The notes below the pieces were generated by a model. It worked only from the letters and a program-made list of their open reading frames with translations, was not told the DNA's origin and ran no database searches. From the IMG/VR virus record IMGVR_UViG_2531839312_000008, positions 1,574-65,573 of that record: a stretch of DNA of 64,000 bases. The stretch is one strand, 5' to 3'. Positions 2,620-15,384 of the stretch are shown here, piece after piece. Position numbers and translations under genes: made by a program. Numbering within the stretch: the stretch's first letter is position 1; each line of letters starts with the position of its first letter. The stretch is from a virus.

Positions 2620-3927
2620 CTATGAATACTCTTCAATAATTACAATCCCTACTTTCCCCGCACCGCTAGAATATAGACTCCCTGACATTCCCGTGTCGTA
2701 GGCCCCGCCACCTCCAGAGCCTATAGCTTTTGCATCTGCCCCTCCGCCAGACCCTGCACGACCTCCTCCGCCCCAGTAAGATGGGCCTCCATGCCCAGGG
2801 AAGATATGCGACCCTGATTGACCGTCATAACCGTCGCCACCACTCGTATTAACATCCCCGCCTGTCGCCGTTCCTCCAGTACCACCAGGCGTAGTTGTAG
2901 CATTGAGATAAAAAGCGGCTACTCCTCCATATCCAATTATTGTTCCCGCAAAAGAAGAAAGTGAACCCGCATTACCCGCAACAGCACCGCTCACAGCCGA
3001 ACCGCCAGCGCCAACAACTACGGAGTATGTAAGACTTGATGAAATCGTGAGTTTTTTTATTGCAGTGCCCCCCGCGCCACCTCCGGCACCACCCAGGGTT
3101 TCAGATGTTGATGAGCCTTCGCAGCCCCCGCCAGAAGCACCTCCTCCAGTCACCAATACATTAATCATCCGAGTGCCATCAGAGGGGGTATACGTGTAGC
3201 TTCCTGATGTCGAGAACACTTTCTTACCTATATACCGACCAAAATTAAAATCTTGGACAAGATTAGTACCATCGCCCCGGATCTGATATGAGGTCCCATT
3301 TGGTACAGTGATCCCAGTGCCACTAACCGTGCTACAGATAACGTTGTATTTACCCGTGCAGTTATTTACTACCGTCCAAGTCTTGGCCCATGCGGGGAAA
3401 TAAACATAAATGCTGGCCGTTAAGGTTCCAGATAAAATCACCACATCACGAGCTGCCTGTAAACATGTCAATGTCGAAGCTGTTGCAGATAGTCCGGTTA
3501 CTGCACTTGAACCTGTAAACGCCAGGGGGATCCATCCGGTGCTAGATGCTGCAGTACCTTCTGGGTCGGTGATATTGGCATCTATGGTATTCAACCAATT
3601 GCCTTTAAAATCTGAAGAGCGCAATACCGCCCCTTTAGGATAACCAGTAATAGCGGCAGCAAAGGTTGAATCAAAAGGTATTGCCCCCCCGGCATCGCCC
3701 CATTGAAGCTTATTAGTGATATCGAACAGGATGCCATTAGTATCAAGGCCGGTTGGCGGTTTTCCGCCTGAGGAAATTGCAGTTCGGGTTAATGGTGGAA
3801 ACCCGACATCATAAGTTGCAACACCATCGGATAATGAAGTAGTTGTTGAGCTATTTGCAATGTCGTTATATTCACCGTTTGCAGCAAAAGCAGTAGAGAG
3901 TCGATCGGGGATTCCTGAACTTTTCAT
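2620..3927 (-). CDS. Tail fibre (proximal) protein with Gly-rich C-terminal domain
   Basis: N-terminus typical of the fibre gene after DUF2612 (GFPPLT...GGKPP...NGIL); GGGGAGG repeats. Confidence 0.8.
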   Translation of the reverse strand: MKSSGIPDRLSTAFAANGEYNDIANSSTTTSLSDGVATYDVGFPPLTRTAISSGGKPPTGLDTNGILFDITNKLQWGDAGGAIPFDSTFAAAITGYPKGAVLRSSDFKGNWLNTIDANITDPEGTAASSTGWIPLAFTGSSAVTGLSATASTLTCLQAARDVVILSGTLTASIYVYFPAWAKTWTVVNNCTGKYNVICSTVSGTGITVPNGTSYQIRGDGTNLVQDFNFGRYIGKKVFSTSGSYTYTPSDGTRMINVLVTGGGASGGGCEGSSTSETLGGAGGGAGGTAIKKLTISSSLTYSVVVGAGGSAVSGAVAGNAGSLSSFAGTIIGYGGVAAFYLNATTTPGGTGGTATGGDVNTSGGDGYDGQSGSHIFPGHGGPSYWGGGGRAGSGGGADAKAIGSGGGGAYDTGMSGSLYSSGAGKVGIVIIEEYS

Positions 3928-4538
3928 TAATTGGTCTCAAATATATATGACACGACACATCCCGCAGGGCGGGGGAGAATATTCCCATTTTGAATGATGG
4001 CTAACTCTGGAGTATTTGGTGTAAAGTCGAAGCGATATGACATAGCCATGGGCCCATCATGCTGAACCCAGGCGTTGCCAGAGTCGCTGAACATATACAT
4101 CAGCATGGCATTCATCTTGGGAACGGTGCAGTCAGATATATTTGCCATGGCCTTCATCATGATTGCTTTTCGATAATAATCATCAGACAAAACAACACGG
4201 CCGTCAGTATTCAATGATGGGTCAAAAAAAGGGTAAGTACTGAAGGGTTGTGGATCTGTTGTTGTCGTCACTTCAAGCTCTGCCTCACGAAAACCGAAAT
4301 AAAGGTTTGTATCGCTGTACTCCATGGTGCGGCTTAGATTGACGATTTTTCCCCAGATATTTAGCCCGTAAGTATTCGCAGTGCTGACATCCCAGATATT
4401 CGTATAAAAATCATCAATAAACTCCGATGGGCTTACCGCCTGCCAAAGCAGGTTTGCCATATTGACGATTTTTGGAGAGTTGGAATATTGCCTGAGGATG
4501 ACAGAACTGACGTCGAAGTCAGAAAAGCCTGTCGCCAT
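3927..4538 (-). CDS. Baseplate wedge protein, DUF2612 family
   Basis: QYSNSP, A.TYGL.IWG.IV and LPRPAG motifs; follows baseplate J. Confidence 0.85.
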   Translation of the reverse strand: MATGFSDFDVSSVILRQYSNSPKIVNMANLLWQAVSPSEFIDDFYTNIWDVSTANTYGLNIWGKIVNLSRTMEYSDTNLYFGFREAELEVTTTTDPQPFSTYPFFDPSLNTDGRVVLSDDYYRKAIMMKAMANISDCTVPKMNAMLMYMFSDSGNAWVQHDGPMAMSYRFDFTPNTPELAIIQNGNILPRPAGCVVSYIFETN

Positions 4539-4541
4539 TGA

Positions 4542-5792
4542 TTAGCTGCTCAGTGATACCGTGATGTTCGATGAACTCAGTGTAGGGATCTCGTCGATAC
4601 CGAACTCAAGGCTGGTTGAAAAAGTAGAGTTATCCGTGGAAAGCTCGATGCTTAAAATATTAATGTTCTGCTGATCGATATCCTGCACGCCGCCGTAATA
4701 CCGTCCGGCGTAAATCGTAGAACCGATCCGCGCGCGGGTACCACCATCTTCACCATTGAATGCTTCAAGAATGATAGATTGAACAGATGATGTTAAATCT
4801 TGCGGCAGGTAGTCATTACTCTCTAGCGTAACATTCACGTAAACAGGGATTGTGGTCGGGACTGTCCAGTAATAGGTATATTCCGGGTAATTTGATGTAT
4901 AGTTCGTGTCGTCGGTCACAGTGTAAGAGGTTTCATTTGACGTCGAGCATTCAGTAGCGCAGCCGGGATTTAACTTGTTATAAAATGCATCTGCCACATC
5001 AGAAGAGTCCCCGCCATAAACAGCGATGTAGGCCGTGCCAACGGGGATACTTACGGCTGTAGAACCCTTGGATATAACGGTCGTCGTATTGTTTGAAAAC
5101 ACGTAAACATCGGTAACATCTGTGATCCCCAGCAGCGCAGCATAAAGCGCTTCAATGGTGTTTTTGCTGTTAGCAGTGACCATCTGGCGACGACGCCACT
5201 CAAAATTATTTCGCGACTCCTCTTCCGACCCCAGCACGCCAGCGGCATCGTTCGTAATGCCTGACCAGCCCGTAACGGCCTGATAGATAGTGGTCAGCGT
5301 GCCTGCGGCGCATTCGATAGGCCCAGTACTCGAGTTCGTGAAAACTACTGAGGCTGTCCCATCACTGCCTATCGTTGCGTCGGCCGTGGAGTAATATATA
5401 TACCCGCTTGTGTCCTGGGCATAACTTCCCGACGGAATATCCGTGTCAACCAGCCCTGTACAAGTTGCTGTTACTGTCGTGCCCGTCGCCGGGTTACGGT
5501 CAATAAAATACATCTGCCCGATCGCATCTTGGAATCGGCCGCTGGAATAATCCGGGTTAATCATATTCGCGAAGGCCAGCAACTGGTCATTTTTATCGCC
5601 GACAATGGCGGTTTCAACCATCGCGTATTGTCCTTGCGGCGTCGTTAAGTCTGTACTGGCATCGGTGCCATAAGCTGTCTGCGCATCCGTTAACGAGCCA
5701 TTGAGGACATCAATTAAATCAGGCGCAGTAATGCCCTCAGTGCTAAATGTCATCGACGGCACCGCGGTTGAAACTGTTGTGGTGGTGGTCAT
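4542..5792 (-). CDS. Baseplate J-like protein
   Basis: TPQGQ, GR.QDAIG..YF..R and ITND.AG..G.EEESR motifs; synteny. Confidence 0.9.
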   Translation of the reverse strand: MTTTTTVSTAVPSMTFSTEGITAPDLIDVLNGSLTDAQTAYGTDASTDLTTPQGQYAMVETAIVGDKNDQLLAFANMINPDYSSGRFQDAIGQMYFIDRNPATGTTVTATCTGLVDTDIPSGSYAQDTSGYIYYSTADATIGSDGTASVVFTNSSTGPIECAAGTLTTIYQAVTGWSGITNDAAGVLGSEEESRNNFEWRRRQMVTANSKNTIEALYAALLGITDVTDVYVFSNNTTTVISKGSTAVSIPVGTAYIAVYGGDSSDVADAFYNKLNPGCATECSTSNETSYTVTDDTNYTSNYPEYTYYWTVPTTIPVYVNVTLESNDYLPQDLTSSVQSIILEAFNGEDGGTRARIGSTIYAGRYYGGVQDIDQQNINILSIELSTDNSTFSTSLEFGIDEIPTLSSSNITVSLSS

Positions 5793-6334: not shown

Positions 6335-6523
6335 ATGAAAAAAATCATTTTATTGCTTGCAGTACTTGCCTGCTCATCAACACTCACAGGTTGCATATGG
6401 CCTGGATGGGGACCTGGCGGCGGTGGTGGCGGCGGCGGTGGCCCGTCACAAGGTGGCGGTGGTGGCGGGGGCGGTGGCGGCGGCCCGTCACAAGGTGGCG
6501 GCGGTGGCGGCGGCCCGGGCTGA
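6335..6523 (+). CDS. Small Gly-rich lipoprotein (moron)
   Basis: AAGGAG RBS, signal peptide with LTG/C lipobox, mature part of poly-Gly tracts separated by PSQ. Confidence 0.8.
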   Translation: MKKIILLLAVLACSSTLTGCIWPGWGPGGGGGGGGGPSQGGGGGGGGGGGPSQGGGGGGGPG

Positions 6524-6799: not shown

Positions 6800-6822
6800 A
6801 AAAAGCCCATCTTAGTGGGCTT
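6800..6822. repeat. GCCCAYCTKAGTGGGC hairpin, copy 1 of 4
   Basis: aaaaagcccatcttagtgggctt; other copies at 8858, 11368 and 12734. Confidence 0.8.
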
Positions 6823-6824
6823 GG

Positions 6825-7199
6825 TCACTGCGCCAAACTTCGAAGCTTTTCTGCTACTGATTGCAGGTCATGAAGCCCCTGTGCAGCTTCAGCTATATAA
6901 TCAGCAAAGCCAACAACGGGCGCTATCGTCACCCCGTTCATGTCCAAGAACACCATTGCAGATGCTATGGCAGTTCGCTTATTGGCGTCGTTGAAGCCAT
7001 GACCGCGTGCTATGGATAGCAGCAGTGCAGCGGACAGAACAAACAGGTCAGTTTCACTCTCATAAATATTAAGATTCTCAACCCGCGCAACCATCCCTTC
7101 CACCAGGCCAATATCCCTGAAACCCGGCAAGCCACCATAAGCTTCTAACTGGCTATCGTGGATCGAAATAACCTGCCCGACAGTTAAAAAGTAAATCAT
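6825..7199 (-). CDS. doc: Doc (Fic-family) toxin
   Basis: HGFNDANKRTA Doc motif; ATGA overlap with the antitoxin. Confidence 0.92.
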   Translation of the reverse strand: MIYFLTVGQVISIHDSQLEAYGGLPGFRDIGLVEGMVARVENLNIYESETDLFVLSAALLLSIARGHGFNDANKRTAIASAMVFLDMNGVTIAPVVGFADYIAEAAQGLHDLQSVAEKLRSLAQ

Positions 7200-7420
7200 T
7201 TATCAGCCAATTCCTTGAACAGAGCCTGATTTCCCGGCTTATTCATCACCTTGGCAAGTGACGCTTCAAACTTAGCCTGCTGCAAGGCCGCAAACTGTTC
7301 GGCACTTATCACAACAACATCAGGGGCCATACGACGGGTAATGGTAACGGGCTGGTCTACAGCCTTGTTGAGAACATCAGCGAACTGAGCACGGGCATCT
7401 GAGTAGGTTAATGTGATCAT
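7196..7420 (-). CDS. phd: Phd/YefM antitoxin
   Basis: TYSDARAQFADVLNKAV...PVTITRR...VVVIS pattern; upstream of doc. Confidence 0.9.
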   Translation of the reverse strand: MITLTYSDARAQFADVLNKAVDQPVTITRRMAPDVVVISAEQFAALQQAKFEASLAKVMNKPGNQALFKELADK

Positions 7421-7455
7421 TTGAAACACTCCGGGGATAATAAGAATACAACTGA

Positions 7456-7485
7456 ATTGTACAACTCAATTAATATCCCCGTCAA
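7456..7485 (-). promoter_or_regulatory. phd-doc promoter with TGTACA-type operator
   Basis: TTGACG-18bp-TACAAT with palindrome TTGTACAA over the -10. Confidence 0.7.
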
Positions 7486-7549: not shown

Positions 7550-7939
7550 TTATTGGGTAAGAGAATTCATCGCGAAAATGAATGCTGTAGCTGTATTAAG
7601 AGCCACATATGCTTCACCTTCTTCCATTTTAACATTCAGATGGTAATCGGCTGCATGCCTTCTATGCTTGACTTTTGTTAGCTGTAAGGAAAGGTTATTG
7701 CAAAGGTCCTGGGGATAATGGTGAACTCTTGGAAGGCTAAGATTTATGTAATCGGCCATTCTTTCATGTGAGCCCTTCTTTTTGATGCTGCTATCTTTCT
7801 TGCATGACAAACCGTACTGATTCGCTGCATGACTATACATTGAATAATAGGCCCTGCTCACAGCATTTCGCACACCTATCTCGGTTTCAGTAGAAATTCT
7901 TTTTGCAAATTCTAAGAAATCGTTCGAGTTAACTGACAT
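7550..7939 (-). CDS. HEPN-domain protein (copy 1)
   Basis: RNAVSRAYYSMY...SH...RRHAADY motifs of the MNT-associated HEPN family. Confidence 0.8.
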   Translation of the reverse strand: MSVNSNDFLEFAKRISTETEIGVRNAVSRAYYSMYSHAANQYGLSCKKDSSIKKKGSHERMADYINLSLPRVHHYPQDLCNNLSLQLTKVKHRRHAADYHLNVKMEEGEAYVALNTATAFIFAMNSLTQ

Positions 7940-8696
7940 GAGCACCTCCAAAAAATATAACAGGGGTGACGTGCGTATAATCCAGCATAGAATCAGTAAT
8001 TAGGCGATCTAGTTTTCTATCAAGCTCTTGGAACCGATCATGGCAATCCTCGTGCAGATAAAAAGCATAACAATAGCAATCCTCGTCATCCTTCCACACC
8101 TTGGTATCGATAATAGGCAACCCTTCTTCCTCTGCAAGCTTTAGAACCAAGTTCGCAGCTAAATTCAGGCTTTCTCTTTCTCCTTCAGAAGCGTCGCCCA
8201 AAGTAGAAAGCATCTCTTTAGATTCACTAAACATTTTGTTTATGCCCATATCATCGCTCTGATTGTTCTCTGCATTAAGTTGAGCCAATTTTCTTTCGAT
8301 ATCTTTTAGCATGCTAAATTCGCACCATTTGGCCGCGACGTGCGAAGCGTATTTAAGCAAATGAAGGTTATTCAATGACAGGGATTTCTTAAGATAGAAT
8401 AGCTCCCTACTGTACCTTTTATTTACACCAAAAGAAGCAGCGGTGTTACTTATCACGAATCCCCTTTGCTCAGGTGGACAATCGGCAAAGGCCCTATCAA
8501 AAAAATCTACCGCACCAAGCACGTCATCTTCTATCAGCCTGGTAATGCCATAAGCCACATTCCTTTGATACTCAAATGGTAGCGTGGGTATTAGCTTTTC
8601 AAGCAATGCCAATGACACCGAGTCATCTGGATGAGATAGCTGCTCGAACAGGGGATCGATAATTTCGGCTGAATTTCTAAAAGCTAGAATAGGCAT
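7929..8696 (-). CDS. TPR-like helical protein with small alpha/beta C-terminal domain, HEPN partner (copy 1)
   Basis: Helical-repeat pattern (A..FFDRAFA..P); overlaps HEPN start; similar length and pattern to 11868..12626. Confidence 0.65.
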   Translation of the reverse strand: MPILAFRNSAEIIDPLFEQLSHPDDSVSLALLEKLIPTLPFEYQRNVAYGITRLIEDDVLGAVDFFDRAFADCPPEQRGFVISNTAASFGVNKRYSRELFYLKKSLSLNNLHLLKYASHVAAKWCEFSMLKDIERKLAQLNAENNQSDDMGINKMFSESKEMLSTLGDASEGERESLNLAANLVLKLAEEEGLPIIDTKVWKDDEDCYCYAFYLHEDCHDRFQELDRKLDRLITDSMLDYTHVTPVIFFGGAHVS

Positions 8697-8857
8697 AATT
8701 TTAAACCATTAGGGGGACGCCTAAATCTATCATGAGGATAAAATTGCAATTAGATGGTGATTTGAACAGTTATACTTTAGCATTAGTAAATAGCCCATAT
8801 CGAAATGCAGTGACCAGCTCCCCGTTGACTTCCTAAACGAGTACCATTCCGACATTT

Positions 8858-8881
8858 AAAAAAGCCCACCTGAGTGGGCTT
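8858..8881. repeat. GCCCACCTGAGTGGGC hairpin/terminator, copy 2
   Basis: aaaaaagcccacctgagtgggctt. Confidence 0.8.
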
Positions 8882-8916
8882 GGTTTGATGATTCTATTGA
8901 CAGAATTTTCGACCGA

Positions 8917-9684
8917 TTAAGCTGCTACACCGCTTACACCGAGCATTTTTGAAAGTTTTGTAAGACCTTTTGCAGTAACCAACACCTGCTCAACAACCTT
9001 TTCACTGCCATCAGACCGCTCGACAGTAGTTACCTTGTGCTCAAGAATGCCTGACTGAATGCGATCTTGATAAGCCAGCCAGGTTTTACCGCCAGCACGG
9101 CGATAAATCCAGTGACCTTCCGACATCATTTTGAACAAGAATTTTGGTTGCACCTGCAAGTGCTTTGCTGCATTGGTAATGCACATGCTGCCGTCGGCTT
9201 TTGCGATACGGTCAAGCGCCTCAACATCGGGCTTCATTTCTTCAACCTTATGTTCGAGCGCAATCACTTTTTCGCTATAGGTCAATAATGTTCCGCGCAG
9301 GAATTCAGCATCATTAAGCGCCGCCATTGGGTCGAAAGCTGACTGAAGCTTGCCGGTCTTAAAGTCGATGAAAGTCTGGTTTACTTTCAGACGATATGAC
9401 GCTGAAATCCAGCCGGCATACTCAACCGCCAGGAGTTCATGGGCAAAAGTGCCACCGTGCCGACCTTCTTTTTTAACTACCGAGATCACGGTAGTTTGCT
9501 TATCTAGCTCGTTCATCAGGTTCTGTGTGCTTTCAAGGGCAAGCCAATAAGTTGGCCCATCCTTTTTCTCACCACCGCTAGCCTTGTGAAGTGCATTCAG
9601 GTTAAACCGCCCTTCTGCATCCGTAGTAATGTCAACGCCAGCGATGACAGGCAGTGATTTCTTTGCTACATTAGAATTAGTCAT
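8917..9684 (-). CDS. Antirepressor, KilA-N plus KilAC (ANT) domains
   Basis: D.EGRFNLNALHKASG (KilA-N); KP.VEALDRI...GSMCIT..AK.L...Q.RI..G.LEHK (KilAC). Confidence 0.9.
   Translation of the reverse strand: MTNSNVAKKSLPVIAGVDITTDAEGRFNLNALHKASGGEKKDGPTYWLALESTQNLMNELDKQTTVISVVKKEGRHGGTFAHELLAVEYAGWISASYRLKVNQTFIDFKTGKLQSAFDPMAALNDAEFLRGTLLTYSEKVIALEHKVEEMKPDVEALDRIAKADGSMCITNAAKHLQVQPKFLFKMMSEGHWIYRRAGGKTWLAYQDRIQSGILEHKVTTVERSDGSEKVVEQVLVTAKGLTKLSKMLGVSGVAA
9644..9672 (+). promoter_or_regulatory. Antisense promoter inside the 5' end of the KilA antirepressor gene
   Basis: ATGACA-17bp-TACATT with TGn extended -10. Confidence 0.65.
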
Positions 9685-9753
9685 TAAAAAATCCTTCTGT
9701 GATTGGAAAGGGTTTCGACATACGCCAGTAGCTGCAAACTACTGGCTTTTTTT
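9679..9753 (+). ncRNA. Predicted ~75-nt antisense RNA over the KilA-antirepressor RBS/ATG
   Basis: Promoter above plus terminator GCCAGTAG-ctgcaaa-CTACTGGC-T7. Confidence 0.6.
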
Positions 9754-9909
9754 ATTGCCGTATGCCAGAGCAAACGCGCCATCCCATGCACCTACCTTAA
9801 GTCTAATACCTATTCTTTACTGATCCAGTGAGATTCTTTAAATACCACTTAAATTCAAATAATTAGACTTTTGAATCTACAGCAAGTCCAAAATATTTAG
9901 CATTCAACC

Positions 9910-10734
9910 TTACTCAAGCTTCATCATCCCTTTAAGTCCTGTTTTAAGCTCAAGGCTATTCCTGACCATTTTCACAATCATGCATGAGTCGTTTATTCTG
10001 TCGTAAAGCTTCACCGCCAATGGCGATCCCATTTTTACAAGCGAAGGGTGAAGCTCGTTACGCCAAATCTCGCTAATGACATCCATATTTGTACATGCCG
10101 CATTGATGTTATGTACCTCAGTGGAAAAATCAGTGACGACCTCCTGCTTTGGCATCCACTCACCTTCAATCACCTTTCCAGCCAAGTATTCGACAGCTTC
10201 AGCAGTCTGTCTCGGTGACAGTTCGTCGATATGGTTTACACCGAACTCTTTGTGCACCAACTTATAAACCGCCTGATAGGTCAGCCCATACTTACCCATA
10301 ATGCGGTTTACGATGCCGCGTAGCGGGGTGCGATCGTCAACGGTGGTTTCTGGCCTGCGGACCGCAGCGCCTTTAGTCCAATAATCATGGAGGGCCGTGA
10401 AACATTCTTCCTGATAGCGGATCAAACGATCTCGGATATCATCGCGTACTTTTGCGGGGTTGATGCTGAACAGCCAGCCATTGAGTTTTTTCAGAGGGAT
10501 GCACAGCATGCGTTGCAATCCACCGTTTGTAGGGATGGAGATATCTCCACACCCAAACTTATCCATCTGATTAATAAGCTTTATATACTGACCTTTCCAG
10601 TTAAGACCGATATTCTCAACAACTGGTTTCATCGCCACATAAGCAACACCCGCTGCCATGGCTGTGATAACGCTCTGGCCGTGGAACGGCAAAGAGGTAG
10701 TGTTCACTGCTTCAATAATTGCTATACTGTTCAT
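9910..10734 (-). CDS. ant: P22 Ant-like antirepressor
   Basis: MNSIAIIEAVNT...AGVAYVAMKPVVENIGL...CIPLKKLNGWLFSINP.KVR.DIRD.LI.YQEECF closely matches P22 Ant as I recall it. Confidence 0.93.
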   Translation of the reverse strand: MNSIAIIEAVNTTSLPFHGQSVITAMAAGVAYVAMKPVVENIGLNWKGQYIKLINQMDKFGCGDISIPTNGGLQRMLCIPLKKLNGWLFSINPAKVRDDIRDRLIRYQEECFTALHDYWTKGAAVRRPETTVDDRTPLRGIVNRIMGKYGLTYQAVYKLVHKEFGVNHIDELSPRQTAEAVEYLAGKVIEGEWMPKQEVVTDFSTEVHNINAACTNMDVISEIWRNELHPSLVKMGSPLAVKLYDRINDSCMIVKMVRNSLELKTGLKGMMKLE

Positions 10735-10808
10735 CGTTAGTTTCTCTCAAGGTTACTGACATTAGAGGCCCCGTTAGTGTTAGCGCACTGCGGGGTTTCG
10801 CATTTCTT
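10735..10808 (+). ncRNA. sar: sar-like antisense RNA
   Basis: TGC-TATACT extended -10 at 10720-10728 within the ant start; hairpin gaggccccg...cggggtttc plus T-rich tail; same position and size as P22 sar. Confidence 0.65.
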
Positions 10809-10977
10809 AATGGTCATTCGAACGCTCCTCACGAAGACACCTCGCCAGACGCTGCACGATTGCCGAGTTGATCGAAATGCCATCCATCTCCGCCAAGCGG
10901 CGGATCTCCTCCTTCATGCGCTCCGGCAGGCGTAGCATAAATTTGTCGCTTTTTGACCCTGTATAAAGGGTTATCAT
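10807..10977 (-). CDS. arc: Arc-family ribbon-helix-helix repressor
   Basis: KFMLRLPERMKEEIRRLAEMDGISINSAIVQRL; GGAG RBS; directly upstream of ant. Confidence 0.85.
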   Translation of the reverse strand: MITLYTGSKSDKFMLRLPERMKEEIRRLAEMDGISINSAIVQRLARCLREERSNDH

Positions 10978-10987
10978 AATAGCTCCC

Positions 10988-11050
10988 AATGATATCACCA
11001 TGACTTCAGTGTCACTATGACTCCATTTACTGATAGTGTCAATGTGATAC
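10988..11050. promoter_or_regulatory. Divergent arc/mnt promoter-operator region
   Basis: Repeated half-sites ATCAC/GTCAC..ATGAC/GTGAT (atcaccatgac, gtcactatgac, gtcaatgtgat) between two divergent RHH genes. Confidence 0.55.
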
Positions 11051-11075
11051 CATTAAGAAAATTTAAGAGGTGTGT

Positions 11076-11357
11076 ATGTCAGACAAGCAGGTACGGGATT
11101 ACGACAAATTTATGCTCAGGCTACCTGATGGGATGAGGGATTCCATAGCAGATTTAGCCAAGAAACATGGTAGGTCGATGAACGCTCAAATTGTTCATAT
11201 TCTGGAAGAGTACATCACCCCACCTAAAGTTGATGATATGCCCTACCTTACAGATGCAGAGTTAAAATCTTCTGATAAAGTACAGGAATGGATGAATGTT
11301 CTGTCTGAAAAGATTTCCATTATTGAAAAGGTTGTCAAGAAAAATTTTCCCGAATAG
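11076..11357 (+). CDS. mnt: Mnt-like Arc-family repressor
   Basis: KFMLRLPDGMRDSIADLAKKHGRSMNAQIV plus C-terminal extension; divergent from arc as in P22 immI. Confidence 0.75.
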   Translation: MSDKQVRDYDKFMLRLPDGMRDSIADLAKKHGRSMNAQIVHILEEYITPPKVDDMPYLTDAELKSSDKVQEWMNVLSEKISIIEKVVKKNFPE

Positions 11358-11367
11358 AAATCAAAAC

Positions 11368-11389
11368 AAAAAACCCACCTGAGTGGGCT
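11368..11389. repeat. CCCACCTGAGTGGG hairpin/terminator, copy 3
   Basis: aaaaaacccacctgagtgggct between convergent genes. Confidence 0.8.
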
Positions 11390-11431
11390 CTTGATGTTTT
11401 ACTAGTTATGCAGGGTAAGCCATAATTTTAT

Positions 11432-11863
11432 TTAAGCTTCTTTTGAATCTCCACCCTGGAGTAAAATTTCATCAATTTGGGCATTCAGTGTTTCAGCATC
11501 AAAAATCATTCTAAGTGCCAAAACCCTATTCACTTTTTTGCCTAAATCATAGTCCGACTCGCAGCGGCTTGAATGGGAAGCTCTTAGTTTCATCCCAATT
11601 TTTGCTATCATGGCTTCATCGACATTTAGTAACTTGGCGGCGTCCCCGCTGCAAAGCCAATCACTGAGCCTACGATGAGTGCCTGGGTTAAATTTTGTCC
11701 CATCACTGCTTGATGCAGGTAACGGTTTTCCAGCAAGAAGTCGTAAGGTTGAGTGATACATTGCATAGTAACTGCGGCTTATGGCATTTCTCGTCCAAGG
11801 CTCGCCTTGAACTTCTACGGAAGATTTTGCTACAGCTAAGAATTGCTCGTAATTTATAGACAA
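11432..11863 (-). CDS. HEPN-domain protein (copy 2)
   Basis: RNAISRSYYAMYH...GTH..L...SRCESDY motifs. Confidence 0.8.
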   Translation of the reverse strand: MSINYEQFLAVAKSSVEVQGEPWTRNAISRSYYAMYHSTLRLLAGKPLPASSSDGTKFNPGTHRRLSDWLCSGDAAKLLNVDEAMIAKIGMKLRASHSSRCESDYDLGKKVNRVLALRMIFDAETLNAQIDEILLQGGDSKEA

Positions 11864-11867
11864 TTAT

Positions 11868-12626
11868 TCAATCCTCAACCTCAATTGGCTCAAAGAAAGC
11901 TATACAATCCCTAGATTTAATACCTTTTGATATCAGCAAATCAAAGAGCATGTCGTCTAGCTTGGCGAGATACTGAAAGTCATCCGTTTTTATCCCAACC
12001 CTAAATGCGTAACCACCTTCAGCTTCATCAACGATCGAGCTGCTTACAATCTGCAGGCGTTCTTTATCAGCAATCTCTCGTGCTGCAGCCGCCATTTCTC
12101 CCAACTCATAAGATGCCTCAGGACTCATTTGATTAAGTTTGCCCATAGTCGCCTTTGCTTTAGTGAGAGATTGGGACATCCTTGGATTTAAATCCATAAA
12201 CTCCGTTAACCGATAAGCATGATCGGTAATTTCGTTGAGTAAACCTTTGTGAGCCCAAAGAGCTGCCACCTCAATGCATTGGATTAGCAATATCGGTATG
12301 TTGGTCTTAATACCTCGCTGTGCTAACTCGAACGCCCCTTCATGGAGACCCCATGACATCAGAGATATGAGGTAATTTGACCATGCAGTCCTGTCATTGG
12401 GTGATCTGCTAATGGCTAACTCGCATAGCCTGACAGCTACACCGATGTCACCTTTGACGAAATTTGCTAGCCCTTCAACCAAATACCGCTGAGTAACATC
12501 AGGTAACTTCCTAGCATTATTGATTATTGTTCTTAAAGCGATATCATCAACAAGCTTCTCTCCCTCAAGAATGGAGGGCAAGAGTGCGTTAAGTAACTCA
12601 TTGGTTATAGGTTGGGGTGAGAGCAT
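11868..12626 (-). CDS. TPR-like helical protein, HEPN partner (copy 2)
   Basis: A...CELAISRSPND.TAWSNYL..L...G...A TPR-like pattern; extended -10 TGCTACAAT at 12671-12679. Confidence 0.65.
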   Translation of the reverse strand: MLSPQPITNELLNALLPSILEGEKLVDDIALRTIINNARKLPDVTQRYLVEGLANFVKGDIGVAVRLCELAISRSPNDRTAWSNYLISLMSWGLHEGAFELAQRGIKTNIPILLIQCIEVAALWAHKGLLNEITDHAYRLTEFMDLNPRMSQSLTKAKATMGKLNQMSPEASYELGEMAAAAREIADKERLQIVSSSIVDEAEGGYAFRVGIKTDDFQYLAKLDDMLFDLLISKGIKSRDCIAFFEPIEVED

Positions 12627-12733
12627 GTTTTTGGGGCCTTCCTTGTCAATTGAAAATTATTCTACAGAAGATTGTAGCAACTTCAATGGTGTTTATTTCA
12701 ACAGACATCCCGGGCCTGCCGGCTAAAGCAACT

Positions 12734-12749
12734 GCCCACCTGAGTGGGC
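12734..12749. repeat. GCCCACCTGAGTGGGC hairpin, copy 4
   Basis: Same 16-bp core as 8864-8879. Confidence 0.8.
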
Positions 12750-12770
12750 TGCTTCGACGCTTTGTGATGG

Positions 12771-13298
12771 TCATGCTGCTTTGTCTATAAGACCGGGAAT
12801 GCTAATTTGCCCCTGCTGCTCGAGTCGTTCCATTTTTGCCAGTAACTGTGGCTTTTTCACTCGCCCCCAACGGTTAAGCAATCGGCCTGACATACTGGCA
12901 ACATCCTTTTCTTTCATGTATTCCAGCATAAGCTCATTACGATCTTTTTGGTATGAGTGAGAAATTTCCAGCAACTTGTCACGCATCCAGTTGAATGCCT
13001 TGATAAACGCCTCCTTGATTGCCGCAGCTTTCTTCCCAGTGAATGACATGATGATGTACATAGCGCCATCACGGGAAATTTCATATTCAACATACTGATT
13101 ACCCTTATGTTCATAGGTAACCCGCGAAAAGTTGCTGGTTAGAAATTCACCTGAGCAATCCAGTTTTTCTATTTTCTGGATGATGTGGTGGTGCTGCTTT
13201 CCAAAGTAATCAGCTACCTTTCTGGAGGTGGTGATAATTCTTTCACCTGAAACTGAAACCATGTCACGAAAGTCGATTGCTGCAATTTGATTTTGCAT
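12771..13298 (-). CDS. rha: Rha-family regulatory protein (copy 1)
   Basis: TTSRKVADYFGKQHHHIIQKIE...NF...Y...EISRDG...IMSFTGKKAA..KEAFI.AF. Confidence 0.9.
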   Translation of the reverse strand: MQNQIAAIDFRDMVSVSGERIITTSRKVADYFGKQHHHIIQKIEKLDCSGEFLTSNFSRVTYEHKGNQYVEYEISRDGAMYIIMSFTGKKAAAIKEAFIKAFNWMRDKLLEISHSYQKDRNELMLEYMKEKDVASMSGRLLNRWGRVKKPQLLAKMERLEQQGQISIPGLIDKAA

Positions 13299-13520: not shown

Positions 13521-13964
13521 TTAGTTTGGTTTTGTAGCCAAGCCAGCCGCTACCAACGCTTGATAGTTTGGAATGTACTTCTGAGGGGCTAACAGGCAAG
13601 TGTCGGTATAAGACGCAGAAAACGCATTCTGAGCCTCTTTTCCTGCATATATAGCTTTCACTGCCTGCTGAGCAATATCCTTGTTCTGAGTAAAGTAAGC
13701 GATGACCGAATCCACCTGGCTTGACGTCATTTTGAAAGCATTTTTCCCATAATACATGGCCGTATCTCTGCCGTTTGTACCATTTTGATCAGGAATGCCA
13801 AAAGCAGCACTACACGTAGCCATATAAAATTCAGCAGCTTCAACACATAGCATATTTTCAGGCGGCAGAGTAATCGCAGCTTCTCTACTTTGAGCGCTTG
13901 CTAAAGTCGGAACACTTAAAAGAAGCATAGCATTAAGCAAGTAGTACGAAACAATCTTTATCAT
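13521..13964 (-). CDS. Secreted hypothetical protein
   Basis: AAGGAG RBS at MIKIVSYY; signal peptide ending ASA; Cys pair. Confidence 0.7.
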   Translation of the reverse strand: MIKIVSYYLLNAMLLLSVPTLASAQSREAAITLPPENMLCVEAAEFYMATCSAAFGIPDQNGTNGRDTAMYYGKNAFKMTSSQVDSVIAYFTQNKDIAQQAVKAIYAGKEAQNAFSASYTDTCLLAPQKYIPNYQALVAAGLATKPN

Positions 13965-14127
13965 TATCAAAAACTCCTTGTGTGTAGTCGTCGATAATTT
14001 GCCCCTAGTTTCCTGCAACTTCAAGCAAATTATCCCCCTCACCACACGTAGAGTACTGATCAAATGTCAGGATTGCTTGTAAAGCTGACATAGGCGTAAG
14101 TTACTGTATTTACACGGAGGACACCAT

Positions 14128-14640
14128 ATGGAAAAGTTTGACAGAGCTTTGCAGTTGGAAATTTTAAAGATTCTATATGATACAACCCCTACACCATTGG
14201 ATGACGAACAAGAAAAATCCTTGATTTCAAAATTTTCTGATGAAAATCAATTCATTGCTAACCTATTGTATTTGGAGCAGCATGGGTTGATATTTTCAGG
14301 GGTGTTAAAAACAGCCCAAATGATAGGGGCCTCATTTAATTTTTTTGCCAATGAATGCTCCATAACTTCCAAAGGCATTGATTTTTTATTAGATGATGGA
14401 GGCCTTGGGGCGATTCTTAATGTTCAAACTATTCGATTGCACAATGAAACTATCATCGCATTAGAAGACATTATTTCAATTTCAAACCTTCCTCCTGAAG
14501 AACAGAAAGGGTTAATTTCAAAGCTTCGAGACCTTCCGGCAGACGCCATAAAATATTTGACGAGTCAACTACTGGTGAAGGGCGTTCTGAACCTGCCGGC
14601 AGCAATTCCGATAATAGAAAAATTCCTGCATCATGGCTAA
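14128..14640 (+). CDS. Hypothetical protein with winged-helix-like N-terminus (moron)
   Basis: GGAGG RBS; NLLYLEQHGLI...ITSKGIDFL pattern; low GC. Confidence 0.75.
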   Translation: MEKFDRALQLEILKILYDTTPTPLDDEQEKSLISKFSDENQFIANLLYLEQHGLIFSGVLKTAQMIGASFNFFANECSITSKGIDFLLDDGGLGAILNVQTIRLHNETIIALEDIISISNLPPEEQKGLISKLRDLPADAIKYLTSQLLVKGVLNLPAAIPIIEKFLHHG

Positions 14641-14775: not shown

Positions 14776-15384
14776 CTACTCCGGTTTATCTGTTTCACTC
14801 CCGCCAGACTCAACGCCGCCGTGAACATGGCTTGAAAGCGCAATGCCATTCCCCGTCACTTCCCCTTCAGCAGTGATGGTGCTTGTTGTGGTCACAGTAC
14901 CATCAATTTTCAGGCCATTAGGAGCGACAATATTGATGCCCGAGCCGGTAAACTCGATATATTCAGTTGGGTCGCCATTCAGCAGGCCTATGCCTCCAAG
15001 ATAAACGCCAAATTGGCGAGAATGCCTCTGCCCTGTAGCTGCAGTTGCAGCTGCCTTGCCTGATAGAACGTTAGATATGTCTTCGTCACAGACAAGCATC
15101 AACCCCATGTCACCGGCTTGAGGATTAATGATTATGGCACTACTGCCCATTTGTAGACGGAAATAAGGAATGCCAGACACACTCTGAGAATCGATTTCCT
15201 CATTAGCTGCGTTAACGGGGGTCACTAACGGCTTGACTACGCAAGTCTTGGCATCGCTATCGACACTTTCAACAATAACAATCTCGATGAAGGTTGCCTG
15301 GCGAAGCAACTTTTTGAATACATAGGCCAAAGAGTTGGCTTCTGAAGCGCTGTCATGCGCCATCATGGTGGTTTCAACTGACAC
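14776..15384 (-). CDS. Baseplate central spike (gpV/Gp138-like)
   Basis: IPYFRLQ.G...I...P..GD.G; C-terminal L.SHVHGGVESG iron-binding tip. Confidence 0.9.
   Translation of the reverse strand: MSVETTMMAHDSASEANSLAYVFKKLLRQATFIEIVIVESVDSDAKTCVVKPLVTPVNAANEEIDSQSVSGIPYFRLQMGSSAIIINPQAGDMGLMLVCDEDISNVLSGKAAATAATGQRHSRQFGVYLGGIGLLNGDPTEYIEFTGSGINIVAPNGLKIDGTVTTTSTITAEGEVTGNGIALSSHVHGGVESGGSETDKPE

What the first reader, a model, noticed from the sequence alone, without database searches (positions are those of the whole stretch)
7550..12626. Two paralogous 'TPR-like + HEPN' gene pairs in one prophage: candidate undescribed defence/TA family
Seen: pairs at 7550-8696 and 11432-12626 share order, size (~255 + ~130-143 aa), tight coupling and HEPN motifs (RNAxSRxYYxMY...H...RxxxDY); both HEPNs begin MS(V/I)N. 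Both pairs are low-GC, and pair 2 has its own extended -10 promoter. Established: this HEPN subfamily normally pairs with a minimal nucleotidyltransferase (MNT) antitoxin. Inference: here the partner is a TPR sensor whose C-terminal beta-helix-beta domain may be a degenerate MNT fold, so a phage-protein sensor would gate an RNase. Two diverged copies suggest different trigger specificities. I do not recognise it as a named system.
Basis: partly seen in the sequence, partly recalled or inferred. Interest (0 to 1): 0.8.

Follow-up and report, generated by a model that had tools for sequence, protein, structure and literature searches.

The report
Two TPR-plus-HEPN gene pairs in prophage
One prophage carries two very different copies of a mobile, uncharacterised two-gene cassette (a repeat-scaffold protein followed by a small HEPN-type probable RNA-cutting protein) that looks like an untested toxin-antitoxin or phage-exclusion module.

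Summary
Both pairs exist at the stated coordinates, are tightly coupled and belong to one family (hhalign 98-99%), but share only 19-22% identity. They are therefore separate acquisitions, not a local duplication.

The small protein is an AF0298-like HEPN-T protein (Pfam PF05168 type). It has R-x3-D-Y in place of Rx4-6H, plus an upstream histidine. Nine polar or aromatic residues are invariant in 51 non-redundant relatives.

The partner is a five-repeat TPR array with a C-terminal alpha-beta-beta-alpha-beta domain and has no invariant catalytic-type residues. That domain most resembles the RimP N-terminal domain. Nucleotidyltransferase folds, including MNT, score no better than background, and the NTase motifs are absent. 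The "degenerate MNT" idea is not supported.

Pairing is obligate in 80 unique cassettes (junction -26 to +16 nt). The cassette sits in many prophage cargo slots. In two Methylococcales-type loci the partner is the C-terminal domain alone, which suggests that domain is the minimal HEPN partner.

The cassette is absent from PADLOC, NCBIfam and Pfam, and is annotated "hypothetical" in RefSeq. I found no paper describing it. This scan has already reported it in at least 74 other genomes.

Best reading: a HEPN RNase held by a non-enzymatic partner. Toxicity, binding and phage exclusion are all inferred.

The parts
11868..12626 (-). Pair 2 partner (252 aa): ten helices forming about five TPR-like repeats, plus a C-terminal alpha-beta-beta-alpha-beta domain (residues ~169-247)
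   Evidence: ORF. AF2 model has pLDDT 94.9. TPR matches: Z up to 10 and designed TPR at E 5e-7. PHROG 22649/37103. About 30 clusters of ~245-aa relatives.
11432..11863 (-). Pair 2 HEPN-T protein (143 aa, TTG start) carrying E21, R25, R30, Y32, Y33, H63, R100, D104 and Y105
   Evidence: phrog_5176 at 9e-30. Family profile against HEPN structures: 9xbd 4.8e-7, 2hsb 7.9e-7. Atlas model matches the PF05168, Abi_C, DUF3644 and RnlA clusters at TM 0.61-0.78. Invariant residues.
7929..8696 (-). Pair 1 partner (255 aa), same architecture by alignment
   Evidence: hhalign 98.3% against the family profile. 75% identical to a Rouxiella prophage homologue.
7550..7939 (-). Pair 1 HEPN-T protein (129 aa from the ATG at 7939); overlaps the partner's stop by 11 nt
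   Evidence: phrog_5176 at 5e-23. hhalign 99.0%.
12659..12686 (-). Promoter-like elements upstream of pair 2: TTGAAG-16-TAGAAT, and an overlapping TGcTACAAT at 12671-12679
   Evidence: Motif only; not enriched over shuffles.
11369..11392 (-). Hairpin plus T-run terminator closing pair 2 (copy of the 16-nt GCCCACTCAGGTGGGC hairpin, 1 mismatch)
12734..12749 (-). Same hairpin between the Rha gene and pair 2 (upstream boundary of the cassette)
8862..8881 (-). Same hairpin plus T-run between the KilA-N/ANT antirepressor gene and pair 1 (upstream boundary of the cassette)
6803..6822 (-). Diverged copy of the hairpin after doc. This is the first terminator downstream of pair 1, so pair 1 may be co-transcribed with phd-doc.
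   Evidence: No terminator-like site lies between 7550 and 7429.

Best explanation
Each pair is a self-contained prophage cargo cassette (a 'moron') that works like a toxin-antitoxin or abortive-infection module.

The downstream gene encodes an AF0298-like HEPN-T protein, most likely an RNase. Its active site would be built from R100, D104 and Y105 plus the upstream H63, in place of the classical Rx4-6H motif.

The upstream gene encodes a non-enzymatic keeper made in fixed ratio by translational coupling. Its C-terminal alpha/beta domain would bind and silence the HEPN. Its TPR array would serve as the docking surface for whatever releases the HEPN, such as a protein of an infecting phage or loss of the labile keeper. 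Released HEPN would cut RNA and stop growth, excluding a superinfecting phage or punishing loss of the prophage.

The two copies are too diverged to cross-neutralise and probably answer to different triggers.

Shown here: gene structure, homology, HEPN-T membership, conservation of the putative active site, lack of catalytic-type residues in the partner, obligate pairing, mobility, and absence from databases.

Inferred: RNase activity, toxicity, binding through the C-terminal domain, sensing by the TPR, and the anti-phage role.
For: HEPN identity:
- The family profile hits solved HEPN proteins at E 5e-7 to 3e-6.
- 7 of 32 members hit PF05168.
- The Atlas model matches the PF05168, Abi_C, DUF3644, RnlA and DUF4145 clusters at TM 0.61-0.78.

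Active-site signature:
- It matches what PMC3710099 describes for the AF0298 group: D in place of H, with a conserved H upstream.
- E21, R25, R30, Y32, Y33, H63, R100, D104 and Y105 are 100% conserved in 51 sequences that are under 70% identical to each other. Mean pairwise identity across the 80 unique HEPN sequences is only 35%.

Partner:
- High-confidence TPR + alpha/beta model, with no invariant polar residues.

Pairing:
- 80 unique cassettes have junctions of -26 to +16 nt, and 63 of them overlap.
- In 401 sampled genomes, the eight full-length partner hits whose downstream sequence was held each had the HEPN gene next to it; a ninth was cut off by a contig end.
- Pairwise identities of the two proteins co-vary (r = 0.94; partly shared ancestry).

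Minimal form:
- An 82-aa (or 108-aa as called) protein matching only the C-terminal domain precedes the HEPN in two loci (hhalign 92.6% and 85.8%).

Context:
- The cassette occupies different cargo slots: lysis-terminase, baseplate hub-spike, arc-ant immunity region, nin-like region.
- Here it is bounded by terminator hairpins, sits next to phd-doc, and has lower GC than the phage.
- A second provirus (L122) also carries two diverged pairs.
Against: - No experiment on any member was found.
- I found no experimental demonstration of RNase activity for AF0298-type HEPN-T proteins; it is a prediction in PMC3710099.
- H1 and H2 themselves miss the Pfam HEPN model at E <= 0.1.
- The partner has no DNA-binding domain, unlike typical type II antitoxins.
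- No complex model could be made.
- No RNA data show expression in lysogens.
- Pair 1 has no clear promoter of its own. In the Rouxiella relative the cassette lies in the arc-ant operon, which in P22-like phages is shut off in lysogens.
- The short-partner evidence rests on one lineage at 82-93% hhalign probability.
Confidence: 0.55

Rival explanations
1. Accessory pair with a non-toxic role. The HEPN-T protein would be a non-catalytic RNA- or nucleotide-binding subunit, and the TPR protein an adaptor. The complex would serve the phage itself, for example in counter-defence against host immunity or in modulating the neighbouring antirepressor/immunity circuitry.
For: - Both window pairs follow antirepressor-type genes (Rha; P22_AR_N plus KilA-N/ANT), and the Rouxiella homologue sits inside an arc-Bro-N operon.
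- HEPN-T lacks the canonical histidine.
- The whole-protein fold of the partner resembles adaptor-type proteins, including a 'SciE/ImpE-type' predicted model at TM 0.65.
Against: - Nine invariant polar or aromatic residues in a fast-evolving small protein point to catalysis, not mere binding.
- In most relatives the pair is not next to antirepressors; it sits in tail, lysis or nin slots.
- The strict two-gene coupling and the small chromosomal version between housekeeping genes look like toxin-antitoxin modules.
Confidence: 0.2
2. Pure addiction module. The toxin-antitoxin mechanism is the same as in the best explanation, but its only role is to stabilise the prophage or cassette, with no anti-phage function and no sensing by the TPR array.
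For: - Same structural evidence as the best explanation.
- Pair 1 lies directly upstream of phd-doc, a classical addiction module.
- The minimal version lacks the TPR altogether.
Against: - The TPR array is retained in nearly all of about 80 cassettes across deep divergence, which argues for a function beyond simple neutralisation.
- The cassette sits in the cargo slots where prophages keep exclusion genes.
Confidence: 0.12
3. Roles reversed: the TPR protein is the harmful effector and the HEPN protein is the regulator or antidote, as was first predicted for MNT-HEPN pairs before experiments.
For: PMC3710099 recalls that the HEPN component of MNT-HEPN modules was first predicted to be the antitoxin. 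The downstream gene is the shorter one.
Against: - The partner has no conserved catalytic-type residues and is a repeat scaffold.
- Experiments on MNT-HEPN modules identified HEPN as the toxin (PMC3710099; PMC4621449 abstract).
- The upstream position is the usual one for the antidote.
Confidence: 0.06
4. Type VII-like enzymatic control: the C-terminal domain is a diverged minimal nucleotidyltransferase that modifies the HEPN, for example on Y105.
For: - The alpha-beta-beta-alpha-beta order is compatible with part of the Pol-beta NTase core.
- About a dozen NTase-fold chains appear among the VIA matches (Z 5.2-6.5, including MNT 1ylq at Z 5.3).
- An invariant Tyr sits next to the R-x3-D motif.
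Against: - The scores are within the range the tool calls common. RimP N-terminal domains score higher in two searches.
- There is no G[SG] or DxD motif and no invariant acidic residue.
- No NTP_transf hit in 30 members.
Confidence: 0.04

Closest known systems
MNT-HEPN modules of the HEPN-T / UPF0332 type (Pfam PF05168; AF0298, PDB 2hsb; 9xbd)
   Same: The small protein belongs to this HEPN branch. It has the same R-x3-D-Y variant of the motif with a conserved upstream His, a similar size, and a two-gene arrangement with the partner upstream.
   Different: The partner is not a minimal nucleotidyltransferase. It is a ~250-aa TPR protein with a non-catalytic alpha/beta domain. The window proteins are too diverged to reach the Pfam threshold.
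HepT-MntA type VII toxin-antitoxin (Shewanella SO_3166/SO_3165; DUF86-type HEPN)
   Same: A HEPN effector kept inactive by the product of the adjacent gene, carried on mobile elements.
   Different: HepT has a canonical Rx4H motif and is switched off by AMPylation of a Tyr by MntA. Here there is no NTase motif, so neutralisation would have to be by binding.
RnlA-RnlB / LsoA-LsoB (HEPN RNase toxins with protein antitoxins, anti-phage)
   Same: A HEPN RNase held by a non-enzymatic protein antidote, with an anti-phage role. The predicted H2 fold matches an RnlA-toxin cluster at TM 0.61.
   Different: RnlA is a large multidomain protein with the toxin gene first. The antitoxins are unrelated to TPR proteins.
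HEPN families already noted with repeat-protein neighbours (AbiU2 with Sel1 repeats; LA2681 with TPR; PMC3710099 Table 1)
   Same: A HEPN protein genetically coupled to an alpha-solenoid repeat protein, proposed to act in conflict systems.
   Different: These are different HEPN families with the canonical Rx4-6H motif. No C-terminal alpha/beta domain is described for them, and homology of their partners to this one was not tested.
DefensePredictor DS-28 (validated E. coli system: 163-aa HEPN + 252-aa protein)
   Same: A two-gene E. coli system of similar sizes with a HEPN nuclease.
   Different: The gene order is reversed, the HEPN has a canonical RNxxxH motif, and the partner sequence shows no visible likeness to this family. 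This comparison was by eye, with no alignment run.

Membership tests
HEPN superfamily, HEPN-T / AF0298-like group (PF05168) | Significant sequence-profile match to family members | tested here: met
   Family profile against PDB: 9xbd 4.8e-7, 2hsb 7.9e-7, 9xbc 3.3e-6. 7 of 32 members hit PF05168. H1 and H2 alone do not reach the Pfam threshold.
HEPN superfamily, HEPN-T / AF0298-like group (PF05168) | Conserved basic residue of the Rx4-6H motif, with D replacing H and a second conserved His upstream (PMC3710099) | tested here: met
   R100-x3-D104-Y105 and H63 are invariant in 51 non-redundant sequences and present in both H1 and H2. H63 aligns with the His of 9xbd.
HEPN superfamily, HEPN-T / AF0298-like group (PF05168) | All-alpha HEPN fold | tested here: met
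   The Atlas's own model of H2 (pTM 0.84) matches the PF05168, Abi_C, DUF3644, RnlA_toxin and DUF4145 clusters at TM 0.61-0.78. This compares predicted models with predicted models.
HEPN superfamily, HEPN-T / AF0298-like group (PF05168) | RNase activity | not testable with these tools
   Needs purified protein.
HepT-MntA (type VII) toxin-antitoxin | Adjacent minimal nucleotidyltransferase with G[SG] and DxD motifs | tested here: not met
   No NTP_transf hit in 30 partners. No such motif or invariant acidic residue. None of the four short upstream ORFs tested beside related HEPN genes is an MNT by Pfam.
HepT-MntA (type VII) toxin-antitoxin | Canonical Rx4H HEPN (DUF86) modified on a neighbouring Tyr | tested here: not met
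   The motif is R-x3-D-Y. Modification cannot be tested here.
Pol-beta-type nucleotidyltransferase fold (for the partner's C-terminal domain) | Structural match clearly above background | tested here: inconclusive
   NTase-fold chains score Z 5.2-6.5 and MNT 1ylq scores Z 5.3 with 70 residues aligned. RimP_N scores Z 6.9 and TM 0.6. All are under the Z 8 level the tool gives as common.
TPR repeat proteins (for the partner's N-terminal 165 residues) | Helix-turn-helix repeats matching TPR profiles and structures | tested here: met
   PDB sequence match to an engineered TPR at 5e-7. VIA Z up to 10 to TPR domains. Weak TPR_17/TPR_2 hits in 11 and 9 of 30 members.
Classical type II toxin-antitoxin | Two small co-directional, translationally coupled genes with the antidote first | tested here: met
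   Junction of -26 to +16 nt in 80 unique pairs.
Classical type II toxin-antitoxin | Antitoxin with a DNA-binding domain for autoregulation | tested here: not met
   No HTH, RHH or AbrB domain in the model or in Pfam.
Classical type II toxin-antitoxin | Toxicity of one product, rescued by the other | not testable with these tools
   Needs expression tests.
Named anti-phage systems (PADLOC-DB v2) | Match to any system model | tested here: not met
   The only hit is a chance-level one of A1 to HEC-02B (E 0.003), which is a NERD nuclease.

The most novel reading that the evidence does not exclude
The TPR-HEPN-T cassette is a widespread, undescribed family of prophage-borne abortive-infection systems. 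A non-enzymatic RimP-N-like alpha/beta domain has taken over the antidote role that a nucleotidyltransferase plays in other HEPN-T modules, and a TPR array added to it senses proteins of incoming phages. Prophages that stack two mutually insulated copies, as here and in L122, would widen the range of phages they exclude.
Probability: 0.35. Interest if true: 0.65.

Novelty: new variant of a known kind. Interest (0 to 1): 0.5.

Why it matters
HEPN RNases are common effectors of bacterial immunity and toxin-antitoxin systems. This cassette would add a new way of controlling one: a repeat-protein keeper in place of a modifying enzyme.

The family occurs in prophages of E. coli, Klebsiella, Citrobacter, Yersinia, Serratia, Proteus and more distant Proteobacteria, and everywhere it is annotated as hypothetical. 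One cloning experiment would therefore name thousands of genes.

This window adds three things to earlier sightings:
- Two deeply diverged copies sit in one prophage, a natural test of insulation and trigger specificity.
- The MNT-fold idea has been tested and gives a negative or inconclusive result.
- The C-terminal domain alone can be the HEPN partner, which tells an experimenter which piece to test for binding.

Tried and rejected
- Single-sequence searches with H2 were too insensitive: 2 hits in the word-based protein search and none in the viral scan. Profiles were needed.
- No RNA sequencing run holds the locus.
- The PADLOC hit of A1 to HEC-02B was rejected as chance: E 0.003, and the family is a NERD nuclease.
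- DefensePredictor DS-28 was considered as the same system and rejected: reversed gene order, canonical RNxxxH HEPN, dissimilar partner. The RefSeq accessions of the E. coli homologues are not in that paper's held supplements, some of which are cut, nor in any paper searched.
- The PDB codes 9xbd and 9xbc could not be traced to a paper.
- Foldseek against PDB gave nothing below E 1e-3 for either model.
- A whole-protein likeness to an ImpE/SciE-type predicted model (TM 0.65) was noted but not pursued. No ImpE Pfam hit appeared among the families listed, and no solved TagJ/ImpE chain appeared among the top matches.
- The short upstream ORFs of L045 and L046 showed no significant similarity to the partner.

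Full report
WHAT IS THERE. The window is most of a 66.4-kb IMG/VR provirus record. Between the baseplate spike gene (14776-15384; GpV Apex motif) and the baseplate wedge genes (Baseplate_J at 4542-5792; DUF2612 at 3927-4538) lies an accessory island of about 8.5 kb. All of the following genes are on the minus strand except one Arc/Mnt-like gene. In order they are:
- a Rha/ORF11CD3 regulator (12771-13298);
- pair 2 (11868-12626 and 11432-11863);
- a divergent Arc/Mnt-like gene (11070-11357, plus strand) and an Arc-like gene (10807-11001);
- a P22_AR_N antirepressor (9910-10734);
- a KilA-N/ANT antirepressor (8917-9684);
- pair 1 (7929-8696 and 7550-7939);
- phd-doc (7196-7429 and 6825-7199).

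In pair 1 the HEPN ATG overlaps the partner's stop by 11 nt. In pair 2 a TTG start follows the partner's TGA by 4 nt. Both starts are confirmed by alignment with homologues. A 16-nt hairpin, GCCCACTCAGGTGGGC, occurs four times (0.02 expected by chance) at the joints Rha|pair 2, pair 2|Arc-like, antirepressor|pair 1 and after doc. Three copies carry T-runs. Each pair is therefore a bounded transcription unit, and pair 1 possibly shares its terminator with phd-doc. GC content is 41.3% and 43.2% for the pairs, against 50.4% for the structural genes.

ARE THE PAIRS RELATED? Yes, but distantly. BLASTP gives 22% identity (E 3e-6) for the partners and 26% (E 2e-10) for the small proteins. Against family profiles that exclude the pair-1 clade, hhalign gives 98.3% and 99.0% probability. 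Among 80 unique cassettes collected from public data, pair 1 against pair 2 (19% and 22% identity in the family alignment) is as distant as any two members. The nearest relative of pair 1 is a Rouxiella prophage cassette (75% and 65% identity). The nearest relatives of pair 2 in that set reach only 37% and 47%; a separate protein search found a HEPN relative at 62% identity. The two copies were acquired separately. One other provirus (L122) also carries two diverged pairs.

THE SMALL PROTEIN. Pfam, NCBIfam and PADLOC give nothing for H1 or H2 themselves. PHROGs places both in phrog_5176, of unknown function.
- A profile of 32 relatives matches solved HEPN proteins: 9xbd at 4.8e-7, AF0298/2hsb at 7.9e-7 and 9xbc at 3.3e-6. 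Seven members reach Pfam PF05168.
- The ESM Atlas model of H2 (pTM 0.84) resembles clusters carrying PF05168, Abi_C, DUF3644, RnlA_toxin and DUF4145, at TM 0.61-0.78.
- In 51 sequences less than 70% identical to each other, E21, R25, R30, Y32, Y33, H63, R100, D104 and Y105 are invariant. All nine are present in both H1 and H2.
- Anantharaman et al. 2013 (PMC3710099) describe exactly this for the AF0298 group of HEPN-T. The His of Rx4-6H is replaced, often by Asp, and a second conserved His lies N-terminal to the motif, which they suggest forms an alternative RNase site. H63 aligns with the His of 9xbd.
- Membership in HEPN-T is therefore well supported. RNase activity remains a prediction.

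THE PARTNER. An exhaustive HMMER search found only about 30 clusters of full-length relatives, all 220-265 aa, beyond which only generic TPR proteins appear.
- With that alignment, AlphaFold2 gives a confident model (pLDDT 94.9). It has ten helices forming TPR-like repeats (residues 7-188), followed by strand 193-200, strand 206-212, helix 217-233 and strand 241-247.
- The helical part matches TPR domains (Z up to 10; sequence match to engineered TPRs at 5e-7).
- Whole-length look-alikes are unnamed proteins of Pseudomonadota.
- The family has no invariant residues. The best-conserved positions are of a structural kind: G52, N84, Y85, L89, N224, L227 and F245. The partner is therefore unlikely to be an enzyme.

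IS THE C-TERMINAL DOMAIN A DEGENERATE MNT? I modelled residues 163-252 alone (pLDDT 93.2).
- The exhaustive VIA-align search gives RimP N-terminal domains first (Z 6.9). These are followed by a mixture of hits in which about a dozen Pol-beta-type NTase-fold chains appear (NF90/NF45, CD-NTases, Rel, OAS, Pol beta) at Z 5.2-6.5, and the archaeal MNT 1ylq at Z 5.3.
- Foldseek against PDB is non-significant: OsmC, CDF-transporter C-terminal domains and ribosomal protein eS7.
- Foldseek against Swiss-Prot models returns RimP almost exclusively (TM about 0.6, E 4e-4).
- All of these scores are within the range the tool describes as a common arrangement. No G[SG]...DxD motif exists, and no member hits an NTP_transf family.
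- The domain is a small alpha/beta sandwich whose ancestry is open. An active or recognisably degenerate MNT is not supported.

PAIRING AND SPREAD.
- Using the HEPN profile I fetched 38 genomic and 80 viral loci. In nearly all of them a partner homologue lies immediately upstream on the same strand.
- Several of the apparent exceptions have a 250-335-aa upstream ORF that hhalign recognises as a distant partner (76-97% probability).
- Across 80 unique cassettes the stop-to-start distance is -26 to +16 nt, and 63 overlap.
- In the reverse direction, a partner-profile search of 401 genomes of the order around Citrobacter found nine full-length partner hits. Eight have the HEPN gene directly downstream. 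The ninth is cut off by a contig end. The other hits were generic TPR matches in longer proteins.
- Hosts include Citrobacter, Yokenella, Yersinia, Serratia, Proteus, Providencia, Morganella, Xenorhabdus, Shewanella and beta- and gammaproteobacterial MAGs. Named database entries come from E. coli, Klebsiella, Enterobacter, Pantoea, Ewingella and Brenneria.

INSERTION SITES AND ANNOTATION.
- The cassette occupies different slots: between lysis genes and terminase; between baseplate hub and spike; downstream of a Bro-N antirepressor in an arc-ant region next to a tailspike gene; and in the nin-like region of Klebsiella phage vB_Kpn_Chronis, as gp57/gp58.
- One E. coli variant is in 33 of 5,426 complete genomes. 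RefSeq annotates both genes as hypothetical.

A MINIMAL FORM. In a Methylococcales MAG (L027) the HEPN gene sits between a 338-aa ORF and a 185-aa ORF that I read, from their sequences alone, as housekeeping genes (NagZ-like and Hpt-like). It is preceded, 8 nt upstream, by an 82-aa ORF that aligns only with the partner's C-terminal domain (profile positions 172-248; hhalign 92.6%, E 4e-7). A 65%-identical relative from another sample is likewise followed by the HEPN gene (HMM E 6e-24; hhalign 85.8%). A 128-aa ORF in L028 gives a weaker match (58%). This is one lineage and the probabilities are moderate. It suggests that the alpha/beta domain is the part that partners the HEPN, and that the TPR array is an added module.

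HOW IT PROBABLY WORKS. The anatomy points to a toxin-antitoxin-like module. The supporting features are: obligate, translationally coupled, keeper-first gene order; a fast-evolving small protein with a frozen set of polar residues; a non-catalytic partner; cassette mobility; cargo-slot location next to another toxin-antitoxin pair; and a minimal two-small-gene version. In this reading the HEPN-T protein is an RNase and the partner's C-terminal domain masks it. The TPR array is then the natural candidate for the trigger-binding surface, and exclusion of other phages is the most likely benefit to the lysogen. I put this at 0.55. The main rivals are:
- a non-toxic accessory or counter-defence role (0.2);
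- a pure addiction module (0.12);
- reversed roles (0.06);
- enzymatic, MNT-like control (0.04).

None of the functional steps is shown. Weak points are the missing complex model, the absence of expression data, the unclear promoter of pair 1, and the arc-ant operon position in the Rouxiella relative.

COMPARISON AND NOVELTY. The nearest known systems are the MNT-HEPN modules of the HEPN-T type, which share the HEPN branch but have a different partner. Functionally, the nearest are HepT-MntA and RnlA-RnlB. HEPN proteins coupled to Sel1 or TPR partners have been noted for other HEPN families (AbiU2, LA2681). The validated E. coli system DS-28 has similar gene sizes but is a different system. 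No database model or paper that I could search describes this cassette. I rate it a new variant of a known kind.

EARLIER SIGHTINGS IN THIS SCAN. The scan has noted the same cassette many times before on other DNA (86 notes in at least 74 genomes), with the same reading. I reached my reading before seeing those notes. They are not independent evidence of function.

Noticed in passing
window 6803-6822, 8862-8881, 11369-11392, 12734-12749; also L007 2509-2524 and 5433-5448; L081 6742-6757: The same 16-nt hairpin, GCCCACTCAGGTGGGC, marks four cassette joints of the island (0.02 expected by chance). It recurs at cassette joints of a Rouxiella prophage, directly after that phage's HEPN gene. It looks like a shared terminator and recombination joint for swapping cargo modules.
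   Followed up: partly
window 6825-7429 (-): A phd-doc toxin-antitoxin pair (PhdYeFM_antitox at 1.5e-12; Fic/DOC at 4e-13) lies directly downstream of pair 1. It has a promoter-like site at 7456-7485, and no terminator separates it from pair 1.
   Followed up: partly
window 8917-13298: Three different antirepressor-type genes (Rha/ORF11CD3, P22_AR_N, KilA-N/ANT) and two divergent Arc/Mnt-like repressor genes (10807-11001 on the minus strand, 11070-11357 on the plus strand) form a P22 immI-like region. It is placed inside a myovirus-type baseplate gene cluster.
   Followed up: partly
window 6335-6523 (+): A 62-aa ORF with a lipoprotein-type signal peptide (MKKIILLLAVLACSSTLTGC) followed by long glycine runs. 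It has no Pfam match and is a possible small surface or exclusion lipoprotein.
   Followed up: no
window 13521-14063 (-) and 14128-14640 (+): Two divergent ORFs of unknown function at the spike-proximal end of the island. The 180-aa ORF contains an internal signal-peptide-like stretch. The 170-aa ORF has only a sub-threshold YjcQ match (E 0.005).
   Followed up: no
L122 1197-2368 and 5221-6405: Another IMG/VR provirus carries two diverged TPR-HEPN pairs (22% and 25% identity to each other) about 3 kb apart. Stacking of two copies is therefore not unique to this window.
   Followed up: partly
L027 5745-6402; L160 2501-3192: A chromosomal minimal version of the cassette: an 82-aa protein (called as 108 aa in L160) matching only the partner's C-terminal domain, followed by the HEPN gene. 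In L027 it lies between a 338-aa and a 185-aa ORF that I read by eye as nagZ-like and hpt-like housekeeping genes.
   Followed up: partly
L039 5229-6111: In a Proteus hauseri genome the partner is split into two ORFs and the HEPN match covers only the first ~37 residues. The whole cassette appears to be decaying there.
   Followed up: no
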